From positions 8,370,001-8,434,000 of the forward strand of contig CAIIXF020000001.1 in assembly GCA_903813345.2 (NCBI GenBank): a stretch of DNA of 64,000 bases. Reading direction: 5' to 3'. This DNA is from Owenia fusiformis (taxonomy: Eukaryota). Below are positions 22,282 through 63,440 of this stretch, piece by piece. The stretch's first letter is position 1. Every line of letters begins with the position of its first letter. The notes under the pieces are model-generated. The model was given only the letters and a program-made list of their open reading frames with translations. It searched no databases and had not been told where the DNA came from. Both the position numbers and the translations under genes were made by a program.

Positions 22282-25200
22282 ATGGAGGCAGGTACAGGAG
22301 AAATAGATGATCTTGCCGCTCTTAGTAGTCTCAGCGAACCCCTTCTCCTAGATGAGATAAGGATAAGATACAGCAAAGATATAATATACGTGAGTTACAA
22401 TAATCTGTTTGTATTTGTGGGATATATACATGTTTAGGGAGATCGTTGTATATAAATGTATAATGTATAAGTGTTTCACATTAAGTAGATGTTAAGGAAA
22501 TATATAGTTGTATTTTGTATTCCTTATTTAGATGTGATTGCATGGCATATTGCTAATATTGACCATAGGATACAGTCAAGCCTGTGTATTTGGGATAACC
22601 GTTCTCCCAACACAGGTTTTACTGGAGTGTTATAGCAAGTTATAGCAAAGTTATTTTCATTGAATAATCATCTTGAAGGAACATGATTTAATCCTGATGC
22701 ACTATTGATTTACATAATTCATGGGAAGGGGCAGACGGGAATACTAATTTGAACAATAATGAAAATAATTGAAAAAATTATTTTCTCCCAAAACAGGTTT
22801 TACTGTAGTGTTTAAACAAGTTATAGCAAAGTTATTTTCACTGAATAATCATCTTGAAGGAATATGATTTAATCCGTATTTATTTACATAGTTCATGGAA
22901 GGGGAAGGGAATTTTATTGTCATTTAGAGGTGTTAGATGGGATTTACTTCAATTTGCTTTACTCAATCATTTTATTTTAATTTGAATATGAAGAGAATTT
23001 GTATTTAAAAAGAAATCCTGAAGGATCACAATTTTTAGGACTGAGTGAATTTCAAACTACAGTACATGTAGTCAAATTGACATCATGCTTTGAGATCACC
23101 TAATAAACCAGAAATTGCATGAAGGGCGTTGTTTTTAAAAAGTTGTATCAGGTTAGATAAAAGCATTTCCCTATGATTCTATTTTTATGATTATTTATGT
23201 GACGTTTGATGTAGCTTTGAGGGTTTATACTGCCCTTTATCACCATTACATCCAAAAATTATCAAAAAACAAATTTGGTTAGATGCAATTACAGAAAACA
23301 GTGTTAGCCAGGATTCATAAATTGTGCCGTATTGCCTTTGCTATTTCTTCACATTGCAGTTATTGTTGTGATTTGTGACTTTGATAACCAATGCTTTACA
23401 TTTTGCATGTTGTTTCTGCATGGCTTTTTGACTTTTGTGTATTCTAGACCTACATTGGTGACATTCTAGTCGCAGTCAACCCATATAAACGACTGCCTAT
23501 ATATGGGCCAGAAATTTCTGAGAAATACAGCAATATTAAAGTAAGACAGCATCATTTGCCCCATCTCTATGCTATATCTGATCAAGCCTACCAGAAGCTA
23601 TGCAAGACAGGGGCAAGTCAGTGTTGTGTGGTCAGCGGGGAGTCTGGTGCAGGTAAATGGGACAAGGTTTAAATTATGTACTGTAAAACCTGTAATAAGT
23701 GAGCTTGAGAAATATTTGAATTTAGATATCGTAAACAGCTTACTATACAGGTATGTACATTCAAAACATATTACTGTACAGTGTACTTTGATAAAACTAA
23801 ATTGTCTGTTTTATAGATTGACCCATGTTTTTCATTTTGAATGATTGATACCTTCAGATTAGTAATAGTGTAAATACTTAAGTAGTAATTTCACCCTTGC
23901 ATGGTTTTATCTAATACTTTATTGTGAGTTCTATATTAAGGTAGCTTGCCTTGAATGTTTATATCAATTGTTCAGCAAAAACTTATCATTATGACAGAGG
24001 GGTTAATATTGATGGAGAAGATGAGTTTAAAATATTATTTTGAAAGTCTGAATTGAGATGAAAAGCAGTTTAGATCATCTACATTTCCGCATTTAATGTC
24101 TCGGGATTAAGAAACATCAAGGGTTCCATCAAATCTAAAAAATGTAGAAACAAATATATATATTTTTTTAATATGCTTTGAATGGCCAAACTGACCAGAG
24201 GAAGTACAATAACACAACATAAATCGTCCACTCCTCTTATTCAAGGATCTGGATCTGATTTAATGTTATTGAAGTCAATATCATATTTGGAAGACAAAGA
24301 CTTAGAAAATCAGAATTTTATTCAATCATTTGCTGAAGAGTTGTCAAAAGTCATGTTGTTATTATCAATATATTTTCGGGTTATTTTCTCAGGAAATGTT
24401 GAATATGCCACTATGAAACAATTTATCGGACCACATTTTCAATATATTCCAAATTACAGGTAAAACTGAAAGTACAAAACTCCTAGTGAAACACATTGTG
24501 AATACACTATGCAACCAGAAGGACACCAGCCTCCATGAACAGATTGTAGAGGTAATTAAACCACACTAGATATTACATGTTCTCTGGCATTGATATTCTT
24601 CAATACTTCCCTAGCCATTCTGTTAAATTAAATTGTTGCATTAAAATGTGGTTAATTGTTGTTTAGGGGCGGGGTCAAAATATCAATGTTCATATGGAGA
24701 CGAAAGTAATTTCGTTTGGACAACAACCCCCTCACCCCCCCTCTAGACGAAAGCTTAGGTCACTTCAAAAAAACATTGATTTTCAGTGACTGTCAATTGA
24801 TTTGGAACCCGGGTTATTATTACGGTGAATTAACACACGTTCGCAATTTAAAGGCAGAATCAGATCTATAGGGGGAGACAAAATTACAAGCAACGTGCAT
24901 AATTGACCTACCAATCTATTCCTTACAATCTCAAATACAATATCTCCCAAAAGATTCACAATATGCTATAAATTGGCGAACTTATTAATGATTCAAAGTG
25001 CAAAAATGGATGAAAAATGTTTAAATTCTCCCAAATAATAAGAATGGTAACCATTCTTATAGAAAAATAATACATTATTGTAAAAATCTTTTGTTTTCCT
25101 TGAATAAAGTATGTACTTTTGTGATTTTTAGAAAATAGACATGACAAGGAATGACATGAGCCAAAAATATTCTAAACTTGAAACAATTTTTTGTTTAGCC

Positions 25201-28200
25201 TGCTCGCTATCTCTGATTCTCTCTTTAACTGCATTGAACTCTTCAAAAGGAGGAGGGAAAAGTACGGAATTTATTTGAAAAATGATCAAATTATCGTCTT
25301 TATCTACCAATATTTTGGACATATCACACAAAAAAGCTCACGAACTATTGAAAACAAGCCTTTTTATCAGAACATAGCGCCAGAAAAAGTGGGTAAGTCC
25401 GATTATTTTTTGTATATCAGATCCGAATTATTGATGTTTTTTTTGGTCAACGAAAGTGCCCAAAAACCCCCTCCCCCCCTCGCGAAAGTACTTTCGTCTC
25501 CATATGAACATCGATATTTTGACCCCGCCCCTTAGTAAGTTAATTACTTCAGCATAAAAAATGAAGACAAATAAATAGAAATAGGTTCTGATTTATCAAG
25601 ATATAATAATAACAAAACCTTTTTTGTAGGTGAACCCTCTTTTGGAGGCATTTGGTAATGCACGTACTGTTATGAATGATAACTCAAGTAGATTCGGCAA
25701 GTTCATTGAGCTGAAGTTTACACCCGGGGGAGAGGTCATTGGAGGTATGTGATTATGCAACAGTGTAGAATTTGTATATCAATTTTTACTGCCAACTTTA
25801 TTAAATGCAGTGTCAGGTTATTTAGTATTTTTGTTACCAACAAAAATATTTTATCCCAAACAATTTCTGTTAATTGATAATCAGTAATTAAATGTTCTTT
25901 TGCCATAAGAGAGTTTTTGCAGCCATGGGGATGTATAAATGTATGCACCATATATTGTACGTACAATATTATGATGACCTTTCAGCCAGGATAGATGACT
26001 ACCTACTGGAGAAGTCACGTGTAGTCCACCAGGGTCCTGGAGAAAGAAACTTCCATGTGTTTTACTACATGTTTGCTGGAATGTCCAAAAAAGAATTGAA
26101 CGATCTTCTCTTAGGGAAGCCTGAGAAACATAGGTACATTTTATTCTCCTACTTGGGGGAGGACCTTACCATTTGAAGAAAATAGGCTTTATATATATCC
26201 AAGGGAAAATGTTATGGGTATAAATGAAAATCAAGTATTTTGTTGTAATAGTTTAAAATGTGCTTTATGTGTTAACAGCTAATGTGCTTTCATAGTGCCT
26301 GATTAAAAACATTTGTCTCATTTTTAAGAAAATTATACCACTTTTGATAAATAGAAAAGTGATAACATTCTCTATGAACGCATACAGCACTTTAGGTTAT
26401 TGTTTTATTTGTAGGTTCCTGAAGCCGCGGGATGGAAGTGCAGTTTACACATCTGAGTTAGATTTCTTCTATAACAAAGACATGTATAGAAAGCTGACTG
26501 AGATAATGGAACTAGTTGGTTTCACAGAACAAGACCGCAAAATGATCTTTGCACTCCTGGCTGCCATATTGTATGTGGGCGATATCCAGTTTGAGAAGGA
26601 TCCTGACACTGATGGGGTTTACATTGTAGATGAATATCCCCTTGATGTCGGTAAGTTAACTTTACTATCATGTATCCATGCTCATGATATACAGGCCCGT
26701 CAGATGGGGGGGTGCGATGGGTGCGACCGCACCCCCCTTTGACACCTCCCCCAAAAAAATTAAATTTTTTTTTTTTTAAATATTGAAAAATATTTTTTTG
26801 TACTTTTTTTTCATCATCTCATACACTTTTAAAGTGCCCAGAAAGCATCAAATAACATCTTAAAATTGTAAAATTTTCTACAGGGAGTGGGCCACCCCTC
26901 ACACCCCCCTCAATACAATGGAAAAGTTCTGAATTTATTTTATGTATTGTCTCAGACACTTTTAAAGTGCCCAAGTGCCCACACATCATCACATAGCTCC
27001 TTGATATAGTCAATGTTTCTGGGGGACTAACACTTGCTCCCCTTCGTGATCCCCATCCCACCTCCCTCTGGCACCCTCGCCCCCCTTGACACCCCTCCAA
27101 AAAATTGAAAAAATTGTGATTTTCTCAATTTTTTAATTCACTCATACACTTTGAAAGTGCCCAGAGAGCACTAAATAGCATTTTAAAATTGTAAAATTTT
27201 CTAGGGGGAGTGGGCCACCCCTCACACCCCAAAAAACAATTGAAAAGTTCTGAATTTATTTTATGTATCATCTCAGACACATGTAAAGTGCCCAGACATC
27301 ATCAAATAGCTCCTTGATATAGTCAATGATTCTGGGAGACTAACACTTACTCGCCCTCTTGCATCCCCATCCCACCTCCCCCTTTGACATCCCCCAAAAT
27401 ATTGTGACTTTTTCAAATTTTTTATCGAGTCATACACTTCGAACGTGCCCAGGAAGCACCAAATAGCATCTTAAAATTGTAAAATTTTCCAGGGAAGTAG
27501 GCCACCCCTCACATCCCCAACAAAACAATTGACAAAAATTCTTAATTTATTTCATGCATTGTCTCAGACACTTTTAAAATGCCAAGACTTCATCAAATAG
27601 CACCTTGATATGGTCAATGTTTCTGGGGGCAGATATGGGGACACACACTTGCTCCCCCTCTGGCACCCTAATCCCACTTCCCCTCTGGCATCCCCTTTGA
27701 CACCCCCTAAAATTGAAAAAATGTAATTGTTTTTCAATTTTTTTTTCGATTGACTCATACACTTTAAAAGTGCCCAGAAGCACCAAATATCATCTTAAAA
27801 TTGCAAAATTTTCTGGAAGAGTTGGCCACCCCTCACACTCCCCACAAAACAAAAAACAATTGAGAAAATTCTGAATTTCATGTATTGTCTCAGACATTTT
27901 TAAAGTGCCCAGACATCATCAAATGGCACCTTGATATGGTCATTGTTTCTTGGGGCAACCCCTTGCTCCCCCTCTGGCACTCCAACCCACTTCACTCTCT
28001 CATTCTCTTTGACATCCCCAAAAATAATTTGAAAAAAAATTCACATTTTATTGACTCATTCACTTTAAAAGTGCCCAGAAAGCACCAAATGGCATCTCAA
28101 AAGTGTAAAATTTTCTAGGGGGAGTGGGTCACTCCTCAAAAGTTTGGAAGTTGCATTTGTTAATTTTAAACACTTTAAGAGTGCCTAAAAGTCACCAAGT

Positions 28201-31200
28201 GACATAATGAAATCATAAAAAACATAAAAATTTCTGGCAGCCCACTCCAAAAACTAAAGCATTCATTTACTCAAACACATTAAAAGTGCTCAGAATTAAC
28301 CAGACAGCATCTTGAATTAGTAAAATTTTCCTTGCTGCCCCCCTAAGAAGAAATTGATTGAAAAAATCTGAATTTCTTATCAATAGATTCTATTCCAATT
28401 AAAACACCTTGAAAGGGTCCAGAAATCACTAAATGTGATCTTGAACTGGTAAAAGTTCTAGTAAGCTTACACCCTCCCCCTATTCTAGTGTTTCTCCAAA
28501 TTTCTCATACAATATTAAATATTGTAATATTAATATTATATTTAGTCTTAAAACAATACGTAAACAATAAAATACTACAAAATATAGGGAGTAACCGACC
28601 CCCCCCCCCTTTTGACTTACGCAATTTGATTTACGCGGCAAAAAAATTGACAATTTTATTTTCTCTTTAGTTAAAACCGCACCCCCCTTGGAGAAAAGTG
28701 TCTTACGGGCCTGATATATTAGATATCAGAACAGAAAGACAGTGAGGATTCTACCAGTTGATATCCTCACTGTACTTCAGGGTTACGGCACGATCAGTTT
28801 TTTTATAGTTTAAAAATTATTCAAGTTGATACATATCAATTTTTAGAACTAGTCACTTGATCATGCATTTTTAACACTGAGCATGGTAATGACTTATCCT
28901 TGCCAAATCATGCATATTGTATTTCAATATGTTTTGTTTCTATTTCAGTTGCCGATCTACTAGGGCTATACCCAGAGGAGCTAGCGAGGATATTGATATC
29001 AAATCTTGCCATAATTAGAGGTAGGTTTTCCTGTTTGGAAGTATGGGAGTAAATTTAATGATTAAAAGGATAATACAAAATTGTTTGCTGTTTCTGAGCT
29101 GCATGCTGATGACACTATGAAGGATTTCCCATTTAAATTGTAGTGGTGCAATGTTGTCAGAAGAATTGTATACAAAAAAAAGTTGCTTACATAATGTCTT
29201 GAATCAGTAGTTTATAATTTGTATAAACGTCATAGCGTCTATATCAAAATGTAAGCAGGCTCATATTGTGATAACCCTGTGGATATATTACTGTGACAGT
29301 TTGTTTTGAACTGTTTATATTTGAAGTAGAATGATATTGATTTAATACATGAAAATGATATTGAGATGTGTCTGCTGGTGTCTGTATAGTCATTTTAACC
29401 AGTTAGGTCTCAAACCTTCAAAATGACTACTTGTGATGTTACAATTATATTTATATGAGATGTCCACTACTGAACACACTTTAATTTGTTGTAATTCTAG
29501 GAGAAAGGATAGTCAGTATGAAGAATCTCTACCAAGCCAGTGATGGCCGTGACGCACTTGCCAAATCCTTATATGGTCGTCTTTTTGACTGGATCGTCAG
29601 GCAGATAAATATTAAATTGAAACCTGAGCATGCTGCAAGGTATGGAAGCATTTTGATTTGTCATTATTGTCAATATAAGCCTAACTTGTCATTGTGTTAT
29701 GTTATATGTTTAAGTACAATAAGTTTAGGAAATATTCAAAGTATACGAAACTGTATTTAGATTTGAAATGTATATTCATTTTGTTCAGCTGGACAGAATC
29801 TTGTTTCATGAAATTATGATTATTTGTATGAACTTCATGCATTAAAACTTCAATTTTTAAATTTCAGTGCTTCAGCACAGATAGGCATTCTAGACATAGC
29901 TGGATTTGAGAACTTTCCCCATAACAGCTTTGAGCAACTGTGTATTAATGTTGCCAATGAACAGCTGCAGTTTTATTTCAACCAACACATCTTCACATGG
30001 GAGCTGGATGAGTATGCTAAAGAAGGAGTCAAGGGAGAAAAGATTAAGTTTGTCAATAACCGCCCACTTCTGGATTTATTTCTAGAGGTAAGTTAGGTTT
30101 TTTTCTATATAGCATGGGTTTCCCGGCAAAGTACCAATGCATTATGGGTAATGAGGTTATGTACTCCGTAATATTGGTGTATATCTGAGAAAATATTTAT
30201 GAAGTATGGAAGAAGGAGCTGTTAGATTGTGTTACTTTGTGTGTTATATCATAGTTTGGGATATCGGAATCTTGAGCTATGACTAATTGAGCTTTTGGGT
30301 GTTTTTTGCTGCACATTGTCATCCTTGCACTACATTTAGTCAAATCAGGGAAGATGGTTTTTGTATTAAACTAAGTGGCACTTGTGCTCACATACTAACA
30401 ATATTTGCTCAACCTGGCCGAACAGTAAAGACTGGATATCTCGTGTGATTTTAAATTGAAACTACAGCGTCCTGACCAATGTCTGTGGTGGTGAATTAGG
30501 ATGTTAATTATGATTTAATTTTTTCTGATGATGAAGTATACAGAACAAAAACTTAAACAAATGAAATAAAGTATTTCAGAATTTTATTCAGAAATAAAAA
30601 AAGTTAAATAAAAAAATTCACTAGCAGTTTCTCGGTTGAATGTTAGCCCATAAGAAATGATGTGAGATTTGAATGTCCATTGCTTGAAATGCTAGAAGTT
30701 CAGTGACCTTGAATCTAATATGGATGATATGGTTGTATGTCAGGCTTAGTGCCTCTTTGTGACACAGACACCTGCGTATTCATCAAAGACAAGTCCGTAA
30801 GGGCAGGGACGGGCAAGGGCTTTTCCAGAGGCATCACACTGCCAGAAACAGCTTTCGTCAGAGTGCTTGAAGTGGAATTTCTGGGCAGGGGCCTGGTATG
30901 CGTTGTAGCTATTGTGCCTGTTGTAGCTATCATGTCCGTAGCTTGGCTGGGCAACGTATGTCTCAGCTGGGTAGTAGCTCTTGGGGCATGTGAAGTAGCT
31001 CTGGTAGGTGGTGGCACATTTCTTGCAAGTGTTGTACATGTAGGAGCCGTATCCATAGCTAGTACAGTGGCTGTAGCTGGTGGTCTCATAAGAGCTGTAG
31101 CTGCTGTGGCTGTTGTAGCTTGGGGCTTTGTAGCTGTCTTGACTCTTGTAGCTTGGGGCTTTGTAGCTCTCTTGACTCTTGTAGCTTGGGGCTTTGTAGC

Positions 31201-34200
31201 TGTCTTGACTCTTGTAGCTTGGGGCTTTGTAGCTGTCATGTCTGTTGTAGTGGTAGGTTTCCTTGTAGTAGCCATCATTCCTCTGGTAGGGGTTGGTGGG
31301 GTACTTGGGGTCATATGATTCACTGGAATTAAAGAAATTAAATCTTTTAGAAGTGGATGATTTAAAAAATAAGGTTTTTCATAGAATTGGGAATAAATAT
31401 GGGGAAGCCTTGCAGAAGGATTGGTGGCCTAGCAATGGTAATGGTTATTTCAGTCACCTTGCTGAACAAATAAGATATAGAACATAAATTGATAAGTTGT
31501 TTATTTGAAATAAAAGTAGATTTAAAGGCTGTATGTTATAAGTTTAACTACTGAATTGTTGATTTACTTGGATAGTTTAAGCTTCGAGTGATCCTGGCAG
31601 CCAATTCAAATATTCATTAATTTGAATTACACCTATAAAGATATTCTTCAGATTAATATTTTTATAAAGCAATATCGGATAAATGTTACATTACAAATGT
31701 CCCTTTTCATCAGTTCATGATAATTTAATTGTGTAAAAGAGGCATTCTCTCACATTTAATTGCATTCTTTTACTCTCATTATTCTTGTGTGGCAGTTGAT
31801 TAAGTGCATTTTAACTTTGTAAATTTGATAGTGCCCTGAAGTGACTTTTATAATGCTACAATATAATGGCACCACTCTGTAACCTCTGATCTCCAAGTGT
31901 CACTATTTTGTGCATAGAATATATTTTTATTCATACTGTCATTCTCATAGACCTGTCAGTATGCATATGATAAATTATGTGGCAAGTGGAATGCAAAAAT
32001 GTCTGATGACTTTTTTATTTAGTACCTTCATTACAAATAAGTTTGTTTATTTCTCTGTCAGATCCATAACCAAATGGATTTTGTTAAAAACCTGAATTCC
32101 AAAACATATGGGAAGGATTTAAGCTTTATTTTTTTAAATGTTGCATCAATGGTATTTCATTTAAAATATGGTTGACATGGTTGTCTGTTTTTCATAAAAG
32201 TTCAAGTGGAACTTCATTATTTGAGATAAAAATTCTTTATAGCTACATATATGAAATCTTCCTATGTTAAAAAAAATAATTAAATAAAAAAGATTGTAAA
32301 ATCAAATTCACCATACAATAATGACCAGCTTAAATATTGATGCTTGAAAAAGATAAAACCCAAATTGAAACAAAAGTTACTATACAATAAAATACATATT
32401 ACTTACGTGGCATATTCACTGGCCATTGCCACGGCAACGCATCCCAACAAAGCTACAAGTACAGTCTGCATGTTGATTGTCTGTGTTGTCAAGCTAAGAT
32501 AGATTGATATTTTCTGGAGAGCTCATTTGGCTTTTATACCCTAATCTAACTACCCAGGTGTTACCACAGGCTGAATATGTGACCAGAATAGTTTTGATCA
32601 TTTAATTAAAAATAAGTCAAGTCACATACAATACTGTACACATAAGTATTTTCTCAGTTTACAATTTACATTTTTATATATTCAAAGGAAATTTTGACTT
32701 TAGTTCTGTCTAATATATTTGGTGCATATATTATTGCTATAAACACTATTGTATTTTATAGAAAGTATAATAGTTCTAGAAATAGTATAATAGTTCTAGA
32801 AATAAGAAAAATATATGTTAGCAATAATGGATAACAATCAAGGTTACAGTTGTGAACTCTAGGTTTAAGCTATGTGTTCATTTTTCAGAATAGTACTACG
32901 GGGGAATATTTTGAATATATTCTCTCTAAAATGTCAAGAAGAGTCGAAATTACATTTCATCGGTGTTTGGACTTTATTTCCATGCATTTATCGTCATGTT
33001 CTCCGATTAGTGAGAGTTTTAGAACAGGAAATCTTTGAATTCTTCGTTTTATTACATAACAACTTCTCGAAGTATCAATTACATGCAATTAATATGATTT
33101 GAATTAAGTGATGTGACATGTGTTATGCCCAGGGACATCACCTGTGCTCATTATTGTGCAGACTTGTGTAGTGAGCGCTCAGAGAAAATCTTCATTACCT
33201 TGTTTTATCTGATATTGCGTACAAATGGGAAGGAAAACATGTGCATTAATGTTTAAGATAAATACAGGAGTATTAGGCTGTTTTAGGGGTCCTTGTGTTT
33301 GCTCTGTATAGAGCTATCACTTCAACAATACCACTCTCTCATTTCTCTCGTGTGCTGTTTAACCTCATGAAATGGTGCTGATTAGACATCAAATGTCCCT
33401 ATACTGTATATACATGAACATTTCATTAAAAAATATTTCAGAGGTTTTTCTATCAAAAATCATATTTTAGGTTTTGAATGGATAAACAATAAAAGAGGTT
33501 GAAAAACTTGAGACTGGTTTCTCTTGCAAAACAATCATGTCCCTAATTGCCAGACATGCCAAGCACTGCAATTCTAAAAACTCTGAATGTCTTACCTATG
33601 TTTACCCCATGTTTATGAATCCATTTGCAATCATGTATTATTTTGGTATTTCAGAAACCATTGGGTTTGTTCTCCTTACTGGATGAGGAGAGTAAGTTCC
33701 CCAAGGGATCAGAGCAGTCACTGTTAGAGAAGCTTCAGAAACACCTGGGCAAGAAGCAAGCATTTAAAGCATCTCGCTCAAGCCATGATCTGAGGTTTAC
33801 CATAGAGCATTATGCAGGAGAGGTGGGTGTTTCATATGTTTGATGTAAACTGTATAATGTATACTTGTGGTGCCAATGGTCTTTAAATATGCAATTTTAT
33901 ATTTACAAATCGCATAGATTTCTTTTGTTTTACCATTATATTGTCTTCGGTATTTTTGTTTAACCATTAGTGAACAGTTGCCTTCAGTACTTACTTATCT
34001 CAAAGAACAATTTTTATTTTTCAGATACATAATGAATCTTTGGATGTAGACAGGAAAACCTTAGGTCATAAGATCAACCCCAATACAATATTTCAATATT
34101 ATAAAACACCATTTTGACCTATCAGTCTATAATTGATACACTTTGACCTCAAGTTTATTGCGACCATAAATTAGCAACTACATTCCAGCCATATCCGGCA

Positions 34201-37200
34201 TTTGAATTTTATGATTATTTTGAAATTCATCAATTTCAAAAATTATTATTCTTGCAAAATATATTTCAATTTCAGGTGAATTATGACATGCATGCTTTCC
34301 TGGAGAAGAATCGTGACACACTAGGGGTGAATATAGTTGAGTGTATGCAGAATAGTGACAGTCAGATCGTAGCTGATTTATTTACTCCAAATGGATCATT
34401 TGAAACCAAGTAAGACATGATTTTAGATTTCCAGGTTTTAGATTTAAAAAGTTTTTACAAAAATTAGCTAAATTGTGACAAGTGAATGATTTTATGTCTT
34501 TTACTTATTTTTTAATAATAAATAATACATTTTTTTCAAAAGATAAGATTTATCTTTGTCACAATTAATACTTCTTAATATACATACTGTTTTAAATTCA
34601 AAAATAATTTTATTGTGAAAACAAAATTCACCTTGTATTTATATATTTGTATGGTTGTGTGTATTATTTGTAGCAACAATTCAATGCAGAGAACTAGAAA
34701 GTCAGTGCTCTACTGTAAAGCTCCAGATCCAAAACGGTTTGAAAGTTTGTCAAGAAAAGCAGCAAAAAAATTGCTCAAAGAAAAGTAAGTTTTAATTTCA
34801 ACTGCTTATTAGACGAGTACATATTCTGCCAAGATGTTTTATTAGTTATTTTATTGGTGAATGGTGAATAGGGCCATGTTGCTACTTTATATCACCAGCA
34901 TTCCTGGTGGTTATAAAGTCTTCAGATCACATTCTTTAAGGAGAATATGAAAGTCAGATTGTATTTTGAAAAAAACTGAACAATATATTTTTAAGAATAC
35001 AACACAACCCCAAAAATTTGGATTTAGAAAACTGCACAACCCAAGAAATTTGGATTTCAAATAATCAATTTTGTAGAAATCCCAATAGTATGCATTGGGG
35101 GGAGGGCTACAATATTTGTATCCAAAACTTAACCTAGCATATTATGTTTATACTGAATAATGTAATGAGTTTGTATTTTAGAGCTAAGCATTCCGGTGCA
35201 CCTGATTCAGCAGTACAGAAAACAGTCAGTGCCTATTTCACAGTAAGTAAAACTTTAACATTTGTTTAATGAAAATTATTGTCTATATTGTATAGTGTTA
35301 TTAATTCAGTACTACAGGCCTTGTTGTAGAGAAAGCTCATAGTGTAAATTCACTTTATTATTAGGCTTTAACTTTTTTAATAACTACTTTATTGCTTCTT
35401 GTAGAGTTCCCTGACTGAACTGATGAGGAAATTGCTGGAAGCTGAGCCACAGTTTATTAGGTCAGTTCATGTATATACAACTTGTATATCGCCAGAAATA
35501 CAGACTGCTGGACTTATTCAGTTTTAGTTCACACCATGGATCAAATTTTTTTGTTTTATGCACAACAGTGAATTTAGTAGTTTCTTCTTGGGATATGTGT
35601 TTTATTTTTGTAACATTTAGAGTATTTAGTTGATCTTTATCTTGAATGAAGAAGTAAAAATGTATGAATATGTTTTGTTATTTATTAATATATTTTTAGG
35701 TGTATAAAACCAAACACTGATCAAAGACCAAACATATTTGACTCCCGAATAATCCTCCAACAGTTGCGTTACACTGGGGTTCTAGAAACAGTGAGGATTA
35801 GACGGATGGGCTTCCCTACACGCTTGCCTCTGGAGGTGTTTGTAAAGCGCTACAGAATTATTGCATTTTCTTTCACTGGTCACGTGGAGCCCTCACACGG
35901 CAACTGTCGCAGAATCATAAACAAAGCGAACCTTCACAATTGTGAGATTGGAAAGAATAAGGTGAGCTTTATAATGACATATTGCCAGTGATACTACAGT
36001 GAAACCTGTATAATCTGAACAGTTCTGAATGCCGATGGGACCAGTCAAAAGTATTTGGATTAGCAGGTATTCACATTTCAAGGTTTTTTATAGGTCAATG
36101 GAAGATAAGAAATTTGGTACCAAGCAAAAGTGTTCACATTGAGAAGTAATCGAATTAGATACATGTTTGGATATACAGGTTTCATTGTATTATGTAATCA
36201 CAGGCCTGTTATAAGTGCTAGACCAGGATGTTTATTCTGAATCTAGTACTATATATACAGAGATAATCTTTGTACTTTCACATAAACATACCACTTGACT
36301 GTGCAATACAGTATCTTGTTGTGTTGTAATAATTCTTGGAACCCTTCTAAGATAGCACTTTGTCCTGGCAAACTTAGATAGTTTAACTGCTAAAGACGTT
36401 ATTGTATCACCACGCTTGTTAATAATAGAAACACCTTGATAAATGGTTTTAAATCAATTACCACTTCATACATTGGAAATGATAGTATTTGTGTGATAAG
36501 GAGGGAACTTCAGCTTTCTTAGAAAATCTCATCCATTCTATGATATGTAAACATTTTATCTCATATAATTATCAACAATTGTGAAAGAATGAAGTTAATT
36601 TTGTTTGAGGTGGGTAATGAGTGAGGAGTGCTAATTATTTAATACTCAAGTGAAGGACATATCAACATTTTTAAATTTCTCTATATGAGGGGAGGGGAGC
36701 AAACCATAAAAAATTCATTTCTCCACAACTGTTGATTAATGGACACAATCCCTAAAATAAAGTATGTTTAATCTCTGTTATTTTCTTGGAATTTTACAGG
36801 TGTTCCTGAAATACTGGCACAATGAGCAACTTGACCTTTGTCTGGACAGGGTCATTAAAGACATTGTATTTGTGCAGTCATATGTGAGGGGATTCCTGGC
36901 TAGGAAACGTATAAAAGTTATCTTAGCTAACGTGCACAGGTCGAAGAGTCTGTTGTCAACATTCATGGTGATGTTATCTCAGGATACAGAGAGGTTGTTT
37001 TATACAATGAATTCACAAAGAGAGCATGATGCAGCGAGACATGAACGAGAGGTAACGATTGCAGCTTTTCTTTATTTTTAAACGTACATGTTCAGTAAAT
37101 ATATATATCTTTTATTGACTCTTAGAATGTCATGGTATGACACATTAGTCAGTCTCATTAAACGTGAGTAAGTGGAACACCTTTTGTACCTCTAAAAAGT

Positions 37201-50400: not shown

Positions 50401-52597
50401 GCCCACATCCAGATATCTTGCTACTGGTTAAAATACCAATAATAGCATTGAAGATTTCATTTATCATCTTTTGCTCCTCATCCTCTGAAACAGATATCAA
50501 TCAGTATGCATATTTTAAACTTAACGAAGACAGGATTTTCAAATGTAACTCAAAAAGAATGTCACGTCACATACCCATTTTGAATGCTTTAAATGGTCTA
50601 AGATGTCTGTCAACCTTCTTCTTGCGCTCATGGGCTTCTTTCTCCTCATTGTACTTGCTCACTCCACTGATAGATTTGATGAGGTTCTGTAGAAAGTAGG
50701 CCCCTGCTGTGGAAATATCTTCATCAGGCACACCAATTCCCAACAGAATCTTTTGCATCCCTAACTTGGTCAATATCTCAATGGACTGAAAGAAACAAAA
50801 GTTCATTGTGCATTGTGATAAAAATCTACAATATTTACGCTTTTATTTTCCACTGTACTATTGGGTGGGTTTCACATTTTTACAAACTCAAAAGTTCTTA
50901 TTTTACATTCTTTGATATTTATTATTTTAGATTGATATAACTTTCAAATTCCAATCACCAAGGCAATTTTACACACATGAATAAATGCACTGATTAAAAA
51001 TTGAATATCAGACTTAAATTTTCCTAGAGCTCACTTCAGGTTCTGATCACATTATGCATGCTGTGCTTATTTCGAAGATTTTAATACGGATTCCACTTTC
51101 TGACAAAGGACTGCACTTTTAATCAAGTGACTCAATCAGAAGCATTTCTCAACTAGATCTCAAGCTCTCTGGGACAAATGAGAACTTGATAATCATTAAA
51201 ACCTCTATTGGAATATCAGAATCCAAACTGGCGAGCACAGCCAATTTAAGATACATTGCCAATATAGGTCATGTTGCTGAGGTGTTGTCAAATTTTCATA
51301 TTGGGTTCACTTACTCTTTCTTTGTTCTCCTTAGTAAGACACTGAAGTACCCTAACAGCAGCTAAAGCCAAGGATTTGTCCTTTATACTCAATAGTTCTA
51401 TGATCTTGGGAATACCACCAGCTTTTACTATCTTCTCAGCACCTGATTCCTCTCTAGCAAGAACTATCAGGTTATTAGCAGCCTACAATTGTAAAGTGTA
51501 GTGATGTACAGTAAATGATAGAATGTTTGAAGAAATTAGTGATAATTTAGTTTTGGTATAAACAGACCAATCTGCACTTTTTTCCTTTACTACACTAAAG
51601 ACAGATTGTAAGCACAGAGAAAATAATACTTTGTTTGCATCATGCTGATGACATATTTATTTCATATGATGAAGTATTTACAAGATGTGAAAATTTTGAT
51701 TATGATTGCATTCTGGTATACATGTTTCCAATTATCAAAATAGTATTTTCAGTAGTTATACAAAGTTCAGTATTGACAAGGTAACCTAATCAGTTAATTT
51801 CATAGACAGTAATACATATTACAAGTAATATTATCCCAGTATAAAGGTTTGATGGCATTAAGCTACTGGCAAACAGCTTCCTTACTTGTATTCGTTTTTC
51901 ATTATCTCCTGACGAGTGGTTAAAGACGAGATCAAACATTTGAGATACTTTGCTGTCAAGGCTCGCAACTTTTGAAGTCTTCTGTTGAATGACCATTGTG
52001 AGTTGACGTAAGATTGGTTGAATTGCAGCATTCTTAGGGTCTACATTGAGTAGCTGTCTGGCATCTTTGTACGCATCTTCATACTTTTCTAGGTGTTGGT
52101 ATGCTTGACAGCGTCTGAACAGAGCTTTTGGGTCATTTGGAGATATCTCTAACGCTGAAAGTAGAAAGTCATTAGAGAATCTAAATAAGATGTATTGTAT
52201 CTAGACAACAAACTCTCCTTTCTCACTTAAGGGAGAAACTTTCCTATCCATAGCCTTCAACTTTAGAAAAAACATAGCTTCTCCCTTGAGGGGAGCCATA
52301 ACAGTTTCTCATATAACATACCCACTTGTCAAATGTAGTAACATTTAATAATTGAATGAAAAATTGTACATGTACATTAAAATGCTTGCTTTTACCTGAA
52401 GTTGTATCCTCTATAGCTGCACTGTATTTCTCAAGTTTCAAGTGACAGGCAGCTTTGTTCTTGAAATATGTTGCCTTTTCTTTGTCACCTTCTTCACTCA
52501 AAGATAAGGCCTTTGCGTAGCAAGTCAGGGCATCCTCATATTTGCCCTGCTTGAAATATGTGTTCCCTTCCTCCTTCAACTCCTTTGGTTCTGGCAT
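44407..52597 (-). CDS. unc-45: UNC-45 myosin chaperone (TPR + central + UCS domains), 16 coding exons, about 1036 aa
   Basis: Exons join in frame (3111 nt): 52597-52396, 52154-51886, 51482-51315, 50785-50575, 50484-50145, 49899-49737, 49469-49335, 49126-49032, 48104-47963, 47752-47612, 47127-46945, 46681-46568, 46326-46093, 45720-45574, 45360-45217, 44829-44407. [17 protein letters not shown]...[15 protein letters not shown] motifs [27 protein letters not shown]-like, [15 protein letters not shown]. Confidence 0.95.
48155..48560. mobile_element. Palindromic non-autonomous element in an unc-45 intron
   Basis: Long imperfect inverted repeat 48348-48513 (ATATAGACC...AGCAGGGGTAATATCGTCGAATACACCC / GGGTGTATTCGACGATATAACCCCTGCT...GGTCTATAT). 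Related sequence at 4381-4620. Confidence 0.65.
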
Positions 52598-57272: not shown

Positions 57273-57865
57273 TTATGTATCTACAGCCGTGACCCCGTCT
57301 GCGTAATTACAATTCATGCGAATTATGTCACCATAATGATAAAAAGATGAGGACGGGATTTCGGACCTTCTTCCCCTAGGATAGATGTACATGTAAGATG
57401 TAAATGTATTCATGGGAGGCAATATGGAGTATATTTTTACAGGAATATATTTTCAATTATCTTTTTGGAACAATTTTTTTGTCCCATTGACATGGTAGTA
57501 TTATATATAGCTGGCAATAAATTCAGTGGTTTTATTAGAACAATATTTTCCTTCGAGTGTTGTCCCCACGATAGTTAAAAATCCAACTCTTAAACACTAT
57601 GGATTAGGACCTCACCTTGTCAGTTCTTTTAAAAATGCCTAGGCTTATTTTGTAAAAAGAGGATCTTATTTTGCTCAGTTTGAATATATCAAACGTTTCA
57701 TCTCCAATATATTTAAAACAACTTCTGAAAATGCGTATGGGATGGGGATTGAAATGCGATAAAGTTAAAAACCACACATCCCATGTTATTTTCCCATAGG
57801 TAAAACATCCATTGTTTTTAGCATAATTTTGGTCATCGAAATTTGATCTTCAAAACTAGATCTTA

Positions 57866-58673: not shown

Positions 58674-59773
58674 TAAAGTCTCAATACCATTCTTCTTTTG
58701 AAGTAGTTTAAGACCGTATTGAATAATTTTGTCATGCAATAAAAATTGAAAAAGAACATCTCTTTTGGGTAAATAGGTTCAACATTTTGAAAAAATGTTG
58801 ACATGGAGTCCCTATTCATAATTTCTTCGAATTATTCGATTGATATTTTTATTATCCTTGAGAATTTACTTGAAAGATAATATATTGTGTTAATGAGAAA
58901 TGTCATATTTAAATTGAAAAAGCACTCATGGTGACAGATATGACCGTCTAAAAGCACTTGCCATACTACACCTGGTCCTTTTATGTATGTTCCAATGATC
59001 AATCAAGCCCGTTCGAAGTGTGATCGTTGGGGGCGACCGCCTCCCAGATTTTTAGAGATTTGTATTTAATTATGCAAATGTGGCAAATGCGGATATGCCC
59101 AAAATGTGCCGGAGAGGGTCTAATTTTTCTGTTGCATGCAGACGCCCCTCCTTGCGTCACTCTGCACTGTTGACGCTTTGCGTGGCGTCCCCCTCTTCAG
59201 CTCTTGGGAAATTCTTGAGATGAGCCTGTCAATCATGCCAATATTAAACACATAAGTTGAAAGCCCTGAATTCATTCATGAAATTGAAACGTATAGAATT
59301 GTTGTAATTCAGAAAGTGCACTGATTTTTGAAATGCTAAATGTTCCTTGACTACATTCGAACTCAATTTTCACATTCACCGTTGATAAAACGTCTGAAAA
59401 TATAACCTATTTCTGCTAATTTTTGGTGAGACAGTCACTAAACAACGTTCTTATAAAATACAAAATATAGAAATGACAATGGGTTTTGCAAGTCCGTTTT
59501 GTAAGTGACAGAAAATTCAGAGAGAGAGGATGCATTTCAAACTGGGCAGACTAAATGATTATCTGGACCATTATGATATAAATGTGCTAAACACATGATT
59601 TGCATATACAGGGTGTCCTGAAAGTATAGGACCCTCCCCTTAGACAGACATATACCAATGCCTCCAATGCCATATATCAGTTTAAAGCTTATACAAATTA
59701 AAATTGATTTGCCAAGTATCATGGTTCAACTCACAAATGGGAAATAGTTACAGGCATTTCAAAATGACCGCGG

Positions 59774-60641: not shown

Positions 60642-63440
60642 CTACAATGGTTTTATCTGTGCTGCAACTACGAAGTCATCTTCCACCTTTGTGAAGTATG
60701 CTTTCCCCTCATATTCAAAGTTCTTGGCAGGAACTCTAACAATTGTCTTCCATCCAAACTCTAATTCAGCTAGTGCCTGCAAATAGGAAGCAAAAAAACA
60801 TATCATAGATCAATTACTAAGTTCACATTTCACGACCCAGCAAAGGAAGTTGACTTACAGCTGGTTCACTCTAGACAACATAATATCAAACGATTCAAAA
60901 GATCCCAAAGTTAGCTGTCCTTAATTTGAATGTATTACTTACTATAGTCACGGGGTGTGTGTTGACTGTTATAAGACCAGTGTATCCCAAACTCCTTGCA
61001 ACCCGCATTGTTTCCACCTCGAGCATATGTATCAGTCGGATATTCTCAGCATCAGAAACGTATTTTGCAGTGGCCACCGAACCTGACCATAGCCACTTAC
61101 CACCAAGCTCAGCAATTACCTTCCTTGCTGGTTCCTCAGCTTGCATTACCAAAGCAGCTATAGGATACAGTAATTCTGGTTCAACTGCAACTTCGTAGTC
61201 GAGTTCAGAGCTGAGTAGCATTCCAGCAGCAACAACTTTACCAGTGACTCTGTTTACGACTCCCATGGAAATATTATCTTGTTCCAAAATTGGCCAGAAT
61301 GTTTTCAAGTGATGCATGTATTGCTCAAATGTACATCCAACATCAATGATTAGCAAATCTTTTCTAATGAAGGCATCGGAGAGAACGACCATCGCTTGTT
61401 CTTTATAGTTGGCATCTGTACAGATGTTGACTAATTCATATGTATCAGTATCTATGACAGACGCTGTGGCATTGTTGTCTTTCTTTTGCCTCAATTTTTC
61501 AATTAGATCCTGAAGACTGGATGAGCCTAGAAAATCTGCAACCGTTAGCAAGACTCCTTTCGATTTCATATCAGCTATTGTGTACATAGCGTTTGCTGAT
61601 GTCCCTCCATTCTGAAAGAAATCTTTTGTGATTATGAGGTTGGCCACGGGAACTTCGATGATCTTTGCAACAGACTCCAATACATTCATACCAAACAGTC
61701 TTGTTTGTATTGGTTTAGTATCGTATTGCTTTCTACGACTGTTGTTTCATTAAACTTGTTTTCATACATCGCCTTCAATGCCATTCGGTCAATTTTCCCG
61801 GCAATTGCTTGAATAGGAAATTTGTCAATCTTCTCAAAGTGCGGCATCATGTAGGTTGGAAGATATTGTGAGCAGAATTCAGAAACTGATTCAACGCTGG
61901 CTTCTCTTTCCGGCATAGCAGTGTAGAAAGTTACTAACGTTATCATACCACTGACAGAGTTATGCACTATAGTTATGGCCTGATCAACCCCAGGGTGACT
62001 CTGCATGACACTTTCAATTTCTAAAATATTTACTCTGTATCCCCGGATTTTCACCTGAAAATCTCTTCGACCTTGGTAAAATATCCTCCCATCGACTATC
62101 TTAGCAAAATCTCCCACTCTGAACAGAAATTCATGGCCTTCGCTTGGTAGGATTGTATTTTTGACAAACATGTTCATTCTGCTTATTTCAGTATAGCCAG
62201 TTGTTAAGCAACCTCCACTGCAGAGCACTTCCCCAGTCTCACCCTTTGGTACTGGCTGTAAGTTCTCATCAACGATATACACATTCGAATTGTATGTTGG
62301 GACTCCAATAGACATAATGTTGTCATTCATTTTTTTCTCAGCATCTTCCAACGATGAAAAAATATCGATGGTAGTATCACCCGCTGTCTCCGTGGAGCCA
62401 TAACCGTTAATGAGGGTGTGCCCATCAGAGAAATAACTGAAGAAATCTCGAACGAGAACAGTTGATACAACCTCACCTCCGAGGATGATAAATTTGAGAT
62501 GGGACAGGCGATTTTTGATTGGATGCATATTGAGACAGACCAACATATTTCGCAAAAGGACCGGAACACAGGCTAGTCTAGTGATGTTATATTGCTCAAT
62601 TGCTTTGATCAACATCTCGGGATCTTGTTTCATTGCCCTTGGCAAAATAATCAAGGGTCGTCCCTTCAGTAACCATGTGTACATTTCCCTAATTGAATCC
62701 ACAAACAACAAGTCTAACAAGGCACATCCAGTCTCATCTTGTTTGAATGGGGTTTTATCCCAGTAGTAATTGATTATGTTCAGCTGACTGGCATGGGTCA
62801 GCTTCACTCCTTTAGGGGTGCCGGTGCTTCCCGAGGTGAACAGTGTGCAAATCAGTGGATTTTCCCCCGTAAGACCACTCTTCATCAGGGCAAAATCAGC
62901 ATCAGTCAAGTTGGTATCTTCAACAGTTGTACAAGAGTCAGCTTCAATTTCATCAAGTATCGAGTCTATGTTTAACACAGGGACTGCTTGGATGGTCGGA
63001 TTGTTAGCATTAGATCCACATGCAAATATGCAAATCGGTTTGCATTCATCCATTATGTACTGCAAACGTTTTGGAGGAAAGACAGAACTCATAGGGGCAT
63101 ATGCACTTCCAAGTTTCAGTATGCTCATCAAAGCGATCACTCGTCTTGCACTGGGTTCCATAAACACGGATATTGTTTTGTCGGGGGAATTCAATGCATC
63201 TATACCGTTATCCACCATTCGTTTCAGTACAATTCGAGCAACCATATTTGCCCTTTTGTTGAGCCGTCCAAAGGTCAGAGTTTCCTCCCCAAATTGGACA
63301 GCCATTTGATTTTCAATTGGTTCCATTCCATTTGATGTATCAATTGTGCCTTTAACAGTGTTTTCAAATACTTTATGAATGAAGTCACCGCCGTTATCAT
63401 TCTCCTCTCCCCTAAGAATACTAAGTGGTCGTTCAGACAT
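60642..63440 (-). CDS. ebony: Ebony-type NRPS-like beta-alanyl-biogenic-amine synthase (A-T-AANAT-like domains), interrupted by a frameshift near 61689
   Basis: Start MSERPLSILRG directly after a TTGCAG acceptor. A-domain motifs FTSGSTGTPKG, FVDS, NGYGSTE, GRRDFQVKIRG, AGKIDR. T domain DFFQNGGTS. C-terminal domain ...VNTHPVTI|ALAELEFGWKT across intron 60942-60777; last exon 60776-60642. The fused product would be about 877 aa, close to insect Ebony length. May be a pseudogene allele or an assembly error. Confidence 0.85.

What the first reader, a model, noticed from the sequence alone, without database searches (positions are those of the whole stretch)
22282..63440. Candidate chitin-secretion and sclerotization neighbourhood: myosin-Exp/Reb-MH2, nested chitin-binding Tyr-rich protein, unc-45, ebony
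Seen: four consecutive genes within 41 kb. Established: Drosophila Expansion/Rebuf MH2 proteins are required with chitin synthase (Kkv) for chitin deposition; many lophotrochozoan chitin synthases carry a myosin motor; CBM14 binds chitin; Tyr/DOPA-rich proteins and N-beta-alanyl-catecholamines (Ebony product) are tanning substrates; UNC-45 folds myosin heads. Inference: the locus may be a co-expressed module for building hard chitinous structures (chaetae, radula, jaw, periostracum), combining actin-guided chitin extrusion, a matrix protein, a cross-linker and a motor chaperone. Chance adjacency is possible, especially for the broadly expressed unc-45.
Basis: partly seen in the sequence, partly recalled or inferred. 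Interest (0 to 1): 0.8.

Follow-up and report, generated by a model that had tools for sequence, protein, structure and literature searches.

The report
Four neighbouring annelid genes, one Expansion-like myosin
Four real genes sit side by side in a bristle-worm genome, but nothing shows that they work as a unit; the interesting one is a myosin motor whose tail is the same domain that fruit flies need to export chitin.

Summary
The window is Owenia fusiformis DNA. The region 22282-63440 carries four genes:
- a 25-exon myosin with a C-terminal MH2 domain (+ strand);
- a two-exon gene for a secreted Tyr/Ser/Lys-rich protein with a marginal CBM14 match, antisense in a myosin intron;
- unc-45;
- an ebony-type A-T-amine-selecting synthetase.

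The MH2 is of the Expansion/Rebuf N-alpha-MH2 kind. Its best solved relative is Drosophila Expansion (E 1.2e-33, against about 2e-9 for Smads). A confident model matches that structure at 1.7 A and includes the extra N-terminal helix.

The fused architecture is in print (class-80 and lophotrochozoan "orphan" myosins). Named examples found here come from sponges, cnidarians, ambulacrarians and lophotrochozoans. All seven named proteins with an N-terminal, motor-less MH2 are ecdysozoan. Trees place the Exp/Reb clade with the lophotrochozoan myosin tails, but an AU test does not reject the alternative (p 0.13).

Indirect evidence leans against it. The genes share no promoter, unc-45 is a general myosin chaperone, and flatworm ebony-type enzymes make a reproductive signal. 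Chance adjacency is the most likely explanation.

The parts
22282..41418 (+). Myosin with an N-alpha-MH2 tail: 25 coding exon blocks, 1292 aa, identical to the named Owenia fusiformis protein P0001
22282..35964 (+). Exons of the motor domain (residues 1-710). P-loop GESGAGKT at 100, switch [10 protein letters not shown] at 151 and switch II DIAGFE at 381 are intact. The IQ motif follows at residue 734, in the next exon
   Evidence: Pfam Myosin_head 9-713, E 1.5e-212; motifs located (motif definitions recalled)
38061..39947 (+). Exons of the N-alpha-MH2 domain (residues about 940-1139), including the helix that precedes the beta-sandwich
   Evidence: Sequence match to Expansion 4r9p, E 1.2e-33; AF2 model pLDDT 89.9 with helix 41-56 of the 251-aa stretch; Foldseek top hit 4r9p, TM 0.89, rmsd 1.7 A
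39948..41418 (+). Three last coding exons (residues 1140-1292) and the introns between them: a Ser/Arg/Gln-rich tail with no recognised domain
   Evidence: no similarity to Expansion outside the MH2
30746..32471 (-). Nested two-exon gene, 213 aa. Exon 1 (32471-32407) encodes a signal-peptide-like start, with a TATAAAAG box upstream. Exon 2 (31322-30746) encodes a Tyr 17% / Ser 15% / Lys 8% protein with four decapeptide repeats and a C-terminal four-Cys CBM14-like motif
44407..52597 (-). unc-45: TPR exons at the 5' end, UNC45-central and ARM-like exons, and an acidic/Lys-rich C-terminal extension
60642..63440 (-). ebony-type single-module synthetase: adenylation domain, carrier domain and an Ebony-like C-terminal domain. 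ORF1 (63440-61686) and ORF2 (61746-60895) are in different frames. The 3' end is either 60895 or a further exon near 60642-60776

Best explanation
The region holds four genuine, unrelated genes of the annelid Owenia fusiformis, and their adjacency is most likely coincidental.

The biologically notable gene is the myosin. Its tail is an N-alpha-MH2 domain of the same subfamily as Drosophila Expansion/Rebuf. In flies this domain is needed for the chitin synthase Kkv to translocate chitin out of the cell. So outside Ecdysozoa the Exp/Reb domain is carried by a myosin III-like motor.

Most likely mechanism (inferred, about 40%): the motor walks on or anchors to apical actin such as microvilli. It thereby places the N-alpha-MH2 module at the apical membrane, which is the job that the non-MH2 part of Exp/Reb does in flies. 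There the module licenses chitin-synthase output.

The other three genes:
- The nested gene encodes a secreted Tyr-rich, probably chitin-associated matrix or cement protein.
- unc-45 is the general myosin chaperone.
- The ebony-type enzyme couples beta-alanine (assumed) to a biogenic amine; which amine is unknown.
For: Gene identities.

Exp/Reb kinship of the MH2:
- Best solved relative is Expansion 4r9p, E 1.2e-33. Its alignment covers the 18 residues upstream of where Smad MH2 alignments begin. Smads score E 2e-9 or worse.
- The AF2 model (pLDDT 89.9) has a helix before the sandwich. Its best fold match is 4r9p (TM 0.89, rmsd 1.7 A), against Smads at TM 0.58-0.83 and rmsd 3.1-6.2 A.
- P0150, confirmed as an Expansion orthologue (E 5.4e-155 to 4r9p), aligns to the tail at 32% identity, E 1e-32.

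Distribution:
- 48 of the 120 listed relatives carry Myosin_head plus MH2. The named ones are brachiopod, chiton, bivalve, annelid, echinoderm, hemichordate and sponge.
- Cluster look-ups add fused forms from cnidarians and gastropods.
- All 7 named proteins with an N-terminal MH2 and no motor are ecdysozoan: Varroa, Blomia, Trichuris, Drosophila, Priapulus, Auanema, Romanomermis.

Trees:
- The split {sponges + Ambulacraria} | {lophotrochozoan fused + ecdysozoan standalone} has SH-aLRT 98 in the 108-row quick tree. It has 89/96 in the 48-row careful tree.

Literature:
- Lophotrochozoan MH2-tailed orphan myosins group with or beside the class-36 chitin-synthase myosins (PMC5583752; passages).

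Chance adjacency: the genes are convergent or tandem with spacers of 3 kb and 8 kb, and belong to four unrelated families.
Against: - No synteny or expression test could be run, so 'coincidental' rests on priors and gene orientation only.
- The AU test does not reject a tree in which Exp/Reb lies outside the bilaterian myosin-tail clade (p 0.132, lnL difference 13.4). No Smad outgroup was available, so the root is assumed from the species tree.
- Sponge, Monosiga and some annelid rows are long branches.
- The fused myosin occurs in echinoderms and hemichordates, which are not known for chitin (recalled; searches found no statement either way). This argues for a role not tied to chitin.
- In flies no physical Kkv-Reb interaction was found (PMC9894549).
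- The tail shares nothing with Expansion outside the MH2.
Confidence: 0.6

Rival explanations
1. One reading: all four genes form a co-regulated neighbourhood. It would combine actin-guided chitin export (myosin-MH2), a matrix protein (nested gene), a cross-linker supply (ebony) and a motor chaperone (unc-45) for chaetae or other hard parts.
For: - The MH2 is truly Exp/Reb-like.
- The nested protein has a signal-peptide-like start, is Tyr-rich and passes the CBM_14 cut-off.
- The ebony-type enzyme has the Ebony C-terminal domain.
- All four lie within 41 kb.
Against: - There is no shared promoter; spacers are 3 kb and 8 kb and the myosin and unc-45 are convergent.
- unc-45 acts on myosins generally (established knowledge).
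- Spiralian ebony-type enzymes studied so far make a beta-alanyl-tryptamine signal in gonadal niche cells or neurons (PMC11214079).
- N-beta-alanyl-catecholamine tanning is known to me from arthropods only (recalled).
- Multi-family functional clusters are rare in animal genomes (established knowledge).
- Neither linkage nor expression could be examined.
Confidence: 0.08
2. Partial link only: the host myosin-MH2 gene and the nested secreted CBM14-like gene are co-expressed in chitin-secreting epithelia, for example by sharing an open chromatin domain. unc-45 and ebony are bystanders.
For: - The nested gene lies antisense in intron 9 of the host, with its own TATA box.
- Both genes have independent sequence links to chitin biology.
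Against: - Nested genes are commonly unrelated to their hosts (established knowledge).
- The CBM14 match is marginal: 23.3 against 22.1 bits, profile positions 16-48 of 53, and 4 of the usual 6 cysteines.
- The Atlas scores of 0.77-0.78 are below the tool's trust level.
- A Tyr/Lys decapeptide protein could equally be tube cement or adhesive (recalled analogy to mussel and sabellariid cement proteins).
Confidence: 0.15
3. The myosin-MH2 has no role in chitin. It is an ancient myosin III-like motor whose MH2 tail is a general protein-binding cargo or signalling module. Exp/Reb acquired their chitin role only in Ecdysozoa.
For: - The architecture predates animals: it is reported in Salpingoeca rosetta and Oscarella (PMC3942036; passages).
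- It occurs in echinoderms, hemichordates, cnidarians and sponges.
- The nearest other motors are myosin III, SH2-tailed myosin III-like and myosin XVI.
- The AU test leaves Exp/Reb's position open.
Against: - Choanoflagellates, sponges, cnidarians and lophotrochozoans all have chitin synthases (PMC3942024; passages). The distribution therefore largely overlaps chitin synthesis.
- The motor's reported closest relatives include the chitin-synthase myosins (PMC5583752).
- Identity to Expansion across the whole N-alpha-MH2, helix included, is 32% by BLASTP against the Expansion orthologue P0150.
Confidence: 0.35

Closest known systems
Drosophila Expansion / Rebuf (N-alpha-MH2 proteins; PDB 4r9p)
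   Same: The MH2 domain with its extra N-terminal helix: E 1.2e-33 by sequence, TM 0.89 and rmsd 1.7 A by fold. It is far closer than any Smad MH2.
   Different: In Exp/Reb the domain is N-terminal and followed by a long region with the CM2 localisation motif. Here it is C-terminal to a full myosin motor, IQ motif and charged linker, and nothing outside the MH2 is similar. A role in chitin export is untested here.
Class-80 myosins and lophotrochozoan MH2-tailed 'orphan' myosins (Kollmar and Muhlhausen 2017, PMC5583752); myosin III-like + MH2 (Sebe-Pedros et al. 2014, PMC3942036)
   Same: Same architecture: motor plus C-terminal MH2. Ambulacrarian and lophotrochozoan proteins with this architecture are the top full-length relatives.
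   Different: Those papers treat the tail as a generic Smad-type MH2. In the passages and term counts seen, neither mentions Rebuf or the Expansion protein. Class membership of the lophotrochozoan forms is left open by the authors.
Class-36 / CS-MD chitin synthases with an N-terminal myosin motor (lophotrochozoans)
   Same: According to PMC5583752 the MH2-tailed lophotrochozoan motors are sister to, or mixed with, these motors. PMC3942036 puts both in the myosin III-like/XVI group.
   Different: There is no chitin synthase or transmembrane region here. The motor relationship was not re-tested, because no class-36 sequence could be fetched.
Drosophila Ebony and flatworm Sm-NRPS / planarian nrps
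   Same: Single A-T module plus an Ebony-type C-terminal domain in place of a condensation domain.
   Different: Substrates are unknown. The coding frame changes between the A and T domains. Known roles differ by lineage: cuticle tanning and transmitter recycling in flies, a reproductive signal in flatworms.
UNC-45 (TPR-central-UCS myosin chaperone; PDB 4i2w, 3now)
   Same: TPR repeats, UNC45-central domain and ARM-like repeats in the expected order.
   Different: It has a long acidic/Lys-rich C-terminal extension. No gene model was built exon by exon.
Peritrophin-A (CBM14) chitin-binding proteins; Tyr/Lys decapeptide adhesive proteins of mussels and tube worms (the latter recalled)
   Same: The C-terminal Cys motif passes the Pfam CBM_14 cut-off. 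The protein has a signal-peptide-like start and tandem Tyr/Lys/Ser/Pro decapeptides.
   Different: Only 33 of the 53 profile positions are matched and only 4 cysteines fall in the match. The repeat resemblance to cement proteins is an analogy from memory, not a test.

Membership tests
Myosin superfamily | Full-length motor domain with intact nucleotide-binding motifs | tested here: met
   Myosin_head 9-713 of a 679-position profile, E 1.5e-212. P-loop, switch I and switch II are present (motif definitions recalled).
Class-80 / MH2-tailed orphan myosins | C-terminal MH2 domain behind the motor | tested here: met
   MH2 at 962-1127, E 8.4e-27. 48 of the 120 listed relatives share the architecture.
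Class-80 / MH2-tailed orphan myosins | Motor-domain phylogeny placing it in class 80 or beside class 36 | not tested
   No labelled class-80 or class-36 reference set could be fetched. This rests on PMC5583752 passages only.
Exp/Reb N-alpha-MH2 family | MH2 closer to Expansion than to Smads | tested here: met
   E 1.2e-33 against 2e-9. TM 0.89 at rmsd 1.7 A against TM 0.58-0.83 at rmsd 3.1-6.2 A.
Exp/Reb N-alpha-MH2 family | Additional alpha-helix directly preceding the canonical MH2 | tested here: met
   Predicted helix at 41-56 of the stretch, in blocks with mean pLDDT of about 96. The segment aligns with Expansion residues 39-56.
Exp/Reb N-alpha-MH2 family | Domain at the N-terminus of a motor-less protein with the CM2 motif downstream | tested here: not met
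   The domain is C-terminal to a myosin. BLASTP against the Expansion orthologue P0150 finds no similarity outside the MH2.
Exp/Reb N-alpha-MH2 family | Required together with chitin synthase for extracellular chitin deposition | not testable with these tools
   Needs knock-down or rescue experiments.
CBM14 (peritrophin-A) | Pfam gathering score | tested here: met
   23.3 bits against a cut-off of 22.1, E 7.3e-5. This is marginal.
CBM14 (peritrophin-A) | Complete six-cysteine domain (pattern recalled) | tested here: not met
   The match covers profile positions 16-48 of 53 and holds 4 cysteines. The AF2 model was unusable, pLDDT 45.7.
UNC-45 | TPR + central + UCS/ARM order | tested here: met
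   TPR_1 E 2.1e-13. UNC45-central pieces at E 7.8e-8 and 3.2e-6, and weak Arm hits. Solved UNC-45 at E 3.6e-11.
Ebony-type synthetase | A domain, carrier domain, and Ebony C-terminal amine-selecting domain instead of a condensation domain | tested here: met
   AMP-binding E 3.3e-61 and PP-binding E 5.1e-5. The only solved match of the C-terminal part is Ebony 6dym, E 3.9e-9.
Ebony-type synthetase | One uninterrupted coding sequence; beta-alanine specificity | tested here: inconclusive
   The frame changes between the A and T domains. A candidate 68-nt GT-AG intron (61767-61700) would join them; otherwise there is a 1-nt indel. The specificity code was not examined.
Co-regulated gene neighbourhood | Linkage conserved across phyla | not testable with these tools
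   No eukaryote genomes are held. Earlier-findings look-ups were empty.
Co-regulated gene neighbourhood | Co-expression | not testable with these tools
   No run is on record as RNA.
Co-regulated gene neighbourhood | Shared promoter or head-to-head arrangement | tested here: not met
   The myosin and unc-45 are convergent, 2988 bp between stops. ebony and unc-45 are in tandem about 8 kb apart. The nested gene has its own TATA box.

The most novel reading that the evidence does not exclude
Expansion/Rebuf, the cofactor that lets insect chitin synthase export chitin, is the motor-less ecdysozoan descendant of an ancient myosin. In sponges, cnidarians, ambulacrarians and lophotrochozoans the same N-alpha-MH2 module still rides on a myosin III-like motor. 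That motor is related to the one fused to lophotrochozoan chitin synthases. Enzyme and cofactor would then both be positioned on apical actin (microvilli), which would help explain how chaetae, shells and radulae are sculpted. In Owenia a secreted chitin-binding Tyr-rich matrix gene nested in this myosin would be co-expressed with it.
Probability: 0.2. Interest if true: 0.75.

Novelty: new member of a known kind. Interest (0 to 1): 0.42.

Why it matters
If the myosin tail works like Exp/Reb, chitin biologists gain a handle on how chitin export is positioned in animals outside insects. It would also explain why the N-alpha-MH2 domain needs an apical-targeting partner.

It would correct the printed view that Exp/Reb is restricted to protostomes, or to arthropods and nematodes (PMC4388265, PMC9894549). 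The same subfamily of MH2 is found here on myosins of sponges, cnidarians and deuterostomes.

The four-gene "module" would matter only if conserved linkage or co-expression were shown. At present it is an untested story built on a probably coincidental neighbourhood.

Tried and rejected
- Whole-genome access: none is held.
- Earlier-findings look-ups: five, all empty or irrelevant. The one hit was an unrelated giant-virus myosin.
- Word-index search for short proteins related to the MH2 region: 590 candidates, none at E <= 1e-5. This is a limit of the word index. The exhaustive search found many such proteins.
- Sequencing runs: no RNA holder listed; 12 coded runs of 3 studies, with shares 0.10-0.30.
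So there is no expression or splice evidence.
- AF2 on the nested protein alone: pLDDT 45.7, not used for fold search.
- Putative last ebony exon against solved structures: no Ebony match.
- Chitin synthase in echinoderms or hemichordates: searched in PMC3942024, PMC10216261 and two library searches; no statement found.
- Chaetogenesis and radula papers (PMC11091046, PMC11149249, PMC5995198): the terms MH2, ebony and unc-45 do not occur in their main texts. 'Myosin' was absent from the first two. In the third, 'myosin motor domain' occurs only for the chitin synthase fusion. Supplements were not opened.
- Owenia chaetae / chitin synthase literature search: nothing on these genes.
- AU test of Exp/Reb outside the bilaterian myosin-tail clade: not rejected, p 0.132.

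Full report
**What the window is.** A tail exon of the + strand gene matched one public protein at 98% identity: P0001, "unnamed protein product [Owenia fusiformis]", 1292 aa, with precomputed Pfam MH2 and Myosin_head. All 1292 residues of P0001 are encoded in the window in 25 blocks from 22282 to 41415. 1290 match exactly and 2 lie on split codons (first mapped by tblastn). The window is therefore Owenia fusiformis DNA, and this gene is already annotated, though unnamed.

**Gene 1, myosin with an MH2 tail (22282-41418, +).**
- Pfam gives Myosin_head 9-713 (E 1.5e-212), a weak IQ match, and MH2 962-1127 (E 8.4e-27).
- P-loop, switch I and switch II are intact, so the motor looks active.
- A 251-residue stretch around the MH2 was searched against solved structures. 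The best match is 4r9p, the N-terminal N-alpha-MH2 domain of Drosophila Expansion, at E 1.2e-33.
- That alignment begins 18 residues before the point where Smad MH2 alignments begin. Smad/Mad MH2 domains follow at E 2e-9 and worse.
- An AlphaFold2 model built on a 40-sequence alignment (A1) has mean pLDDT 89.9 and a helix at 41-56 ahead of the beta-sandwich.
- Foldseek ranks 4r9p first (E 6.3e-24, TM 0.89, rmsd 1.7 A). Smads follow at TM 0.58-0.83 and rmsd 3.1-6.2 A.

**What is already in print about this architecture.**
- Kollmar and Muhlhausen 2017 (PMC5583752; passages read) define class-80 myosins with a C-terminal MH2, so far restricted to echinoderms and hemichordates.
- They note lophotrochozoan "orphans" with the same architecture. 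[quoted passage not shown]
- Sebe-Pedros et al. 2014 (PMC3942036; passages) report myosin III-like + MH2 in Salpingoeca rosetta and Oscarella carmela. They place the annelid and mollusc chitin-synthase myosins in the related class XVI.
- In what I saw, neither paper links the tail to Expansion/Rebuf. 'Rebuf' occurs 0 times in both (table).
- The Expansion structure paper (PMC4388265; passages and section 3.1) contains 'myosin' 0 times and states that Exp/Reb are restricted to protostomes.
- De Giorgio et al. 2023 (PMC9894549; passages) contains 'myosin' 0 times. It says Exp orthologues are known from arthropods and nematodes.
- Library searches found no other paper. "Rebuf + Expansion + lophotrochozoa" returned 0 papers. 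"MH2 + myosin + chitin synthase" returned only the two myosin papers.
- So, within that library, the architecture is known but its assignment to the Exp/Reb subfamily is not in print.

**Distribution found here.**
- Of the 120 listed full-length relatives of P0001 (8000 candidates scored), 48 carry Myosin_head plus MH2.
- The named ones are from a brachiopod, a chiton, many bivalves, annelids, echinoderms, hemichordates and sponges. None is ecdysozoan or chordate.
- The next-best motors are SH2-tailed myosin III-like, myosin III and myosin XVI.
- An exhaustive search with the MH2 stretch found 451 representatives at E <= 1e-3, 184 at <= 1e-10 and 18 at <= 1e-30.
- By BLASTP against the two halves of P0001, the 285 proteins then stored split into 63 motor+MH2, 149 MH2 only, 71 motor only and 2 neither. 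Many of the "MH2 only" proteins are fragments.
- I looked up 29 distinct representatives by cluster; 20 returned an organism name.
- The fused form also occurs in cnidarians (Rhopilema, Hydractinia) and gastropods (Patella, Haliotis, Aplysia, Batillaria, Littorina).
- All 7 named proteins with an N-terminal MH2 and no motor are ecdysozoan: Varroa, Blomia, Trichuris, Drosophila rhopaloa, Priapulus (partial), Auanema, Romanomermis.
- The four named motor-less non-ecdysozoan entries are short or split gene models. Helobdella 170489 sits next to the motor-only model 170488, both on a 3.5-Mb scaffold. Solemya has separate motor and MH2 models, both on a 185-Mb contig. The others are Ridgeia (321 aa) and Monosiga (512 aa).
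- P0150 is an Expansion orthologue (E 5.4e-155 to 4r9p).

**Trees of the MH2 domain.**
- The 108-row quick tree used 24 named rows plus every representative covering at least 175 of 201 query positions; shorter hits were dropped. Rooted on sponges, it gives the order sponges, Ambulacraria, then a protostome group (SH-aLRT 98). In that group the motor-less clade (SH-aLRT 96) is nested among lophotrochozoan myosin tails.
- The 48-row careful tree used rows I chose: the named rows plus a sample of unnamed standalone ones. It keeps the split {sponges + Ambulacraria} | {the rest} at 89/96 and the ecdysozoan clade at 99/90.
- Against this reading, an AU test of the alternative does not reject it. 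Holding the lophotrochozoan and ambulacrarian tails together as one clade, with Exp/Reb outside, gives p 0.132 and a lnL difference of 13.4.
- No Smad outgroup was available, and several rows are long branches; Monosiga is pulled next to Owenia.
- The reading [quoted passage not shown] is favoured by topology and by taxon distribution, but it is not proven.

**Likely mechanism (inferred).**
- In Drosophila the N-alpha-MH2 is required for Kkv-dependent chitin translocation. Alone it is inactive and cytoplasmic. Apical localisation is supplied by other parts of Exp/Reb, including the CM2 motif (PMC9894549).
- The Owenia protein shares nothing with Expansion outside the MH2. It has a motor where Exp/Reb has its localisation region.
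- The simplest hypothesis is that the motor delivers or anchors the N-alpha-MH2 at apical actin. In annelid chaetoblasts, chitin is released around dynamic microvilli (abstract of PMC4705615 in the listing).
- I put this at about 40%. The main objections are the presence of the fused myosin in echinoderms and hemichordates, which are not known for chitin (recalled; I found no source either way), and its pre-metazoan origin.

**Gene 2, nested gene (32471-30746, -).**
- A scan of the intron for start-codon exons with a hydrophobic stretch, a GT donor and the right phase gave one candidate. It is 32471-32407, encoding [21 protein letters not shown], with donor CAC|GTAAGT.
- Joined to the acceptor at 31323/31322, it gives an open 213-codon frame. 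A TATAAAAG box lies about 65 nt upstream of the ATG.
- After removal of 17 N-terminal residues (my own cleavage-site estimate; no prediction tool was run), the protein is 17.3% Tyr, 15.3% Ser and 8.2% Lys. It has four (D/E)[10 protein letters not shown] repeats.
- Its C-terminus matches CBM_14 at 23.3 bits (cut-off 22.1), over profile positions 16-48 of 53, with four cysteines.
- The Atlas's three best feature hits are all CBM_14 clusters, but at scores of 0.77-0.78, which the tool itself rates as leads only.
- A single-sequence fold was unusable.
- "Secreted Tyr-rich protein, probably chitin-associated" is reasonable. A tube-cement or adhesive role is equally open.

**Gene 3, unc-45 (52597-44407, -).** It has TPR repeats (E 2.1e-13), UNC45-central pieces (E 7.8e-8 and 3.2e-6) and ARM-like pieces. 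It matches solved C. elegans and Drosophila UNC-45 at E 3.6e-11 and 3.4e-8. Its stop lies 2988 bp from the myosin's stop, on the opposite strand.

**Gene 4, ebony-type synthetase (63440 to 60895 or 60642, -).**
- It has AMP-binding (E 3.3e-61) and PP-binding domains. Its C-terminal part has Drosophila Ebony as its only solved match (E 3.9e-9).
- The A-domain ORF and the carrier-domain ORF are in different frames and overlap by about 60 nt.
- A 68-nt GT-AG intron (61767-61700) would join them in frame. Otherwise there is a 1-nt indel, either real or an assembly error.
- The 3' exon is unresolved.
- Ebony/Sm-NRPS-type A domains are already reported from annelids (PMC10531068; passages).
- In planarians and schistosomes this enzyme makes beta-alanyl-tryptamine, a reproductive signal (PMC11214079; passages). 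A tanning role in an annelid is therefore an assumption carried over from insects.

**The neighbourhood claim.**
- The chaetogenesis and radula papers I opened do not mention MH2, ebony or unc-45 in their main text. Their supplements were not opened and might hold gene lists that bear on this.
- What can be said from the sequence: the four genes have separate promoters and mixed orientations. They belong to four unrelated families. Two of them have well-documented roles unrelated to chitin.
- I therefore rate a four-gene module at under 10%, a host/nested-gene link at about 15%, and coincidence as the default.

**Verdict.** The module interpretation is untested and unlikely. One component is a worthwhile, testable lead: a myosin carrying the Exp/Reb N-alpha-MH2 domain, widespread outside Ecdysozoa. 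Its architecture is known, but its link to the chitin-export cofactor appears not to have been drawn.

Noticed in passing
window 5152-17400: Retroelement-like structure. Two long direct copies (for example 5152-5451 = 12905-13204 at 100%, spacing 7753) flank an 894-codon ORF (9784-12468). The ORF has a gag-like region, a zinc knuckle and an aspartyl protease, but no reverse transcriptase or integrase. Each copy holds internal tandem arrays with periods near 100 and 87-300 nt. Described only.
   Followed up: partly
window 61686-61767: The ebony-type gene changes reading frame between the adenylation and carrier domains. Either a very short (68-nt) GT-AG intron with a poor pyrimidine tract or a one-base indel would explain it.
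   Followed up: partly
P0045 / P0193 (Helobdella), P0047 / P0121 (Solemya), P0042 (Capitella): In several public annotations the myosin-MH2 gene seems split into a motor-only model and an MH2-only model. The Helobdella locus numbers are consecutive (170488/170489). This may be why Exp/Reb-like proteins were reported from annelids and molluscs as stand-alone proteins.
   Followed up: partly
P0226 (Monosiga brevicollis, 512 aa): A choanoflagellate MH2-domain protein is among the relatives of the Owenia tail (E 6.5e-17). Its model shows no motor. It behaves as a very long branch in the trees.
   Followed up: no
window 26650-28947 (myosin intron) and 55200-58900 (between unc-45 and ebony): Dispersed repeated elements: similar short ORF fragments recur on both strands (for example 55271-55489 and 58055-58231; 55891-56055 and 58652-58831). 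They are probably transposon remnants.
   Followed up: no
window 44407-44877: unc-45 ends in a long Glu/Lys-rich extension of about 100 residues beyond the ARM-like region. It has no Pfam match.
   Followed up: no
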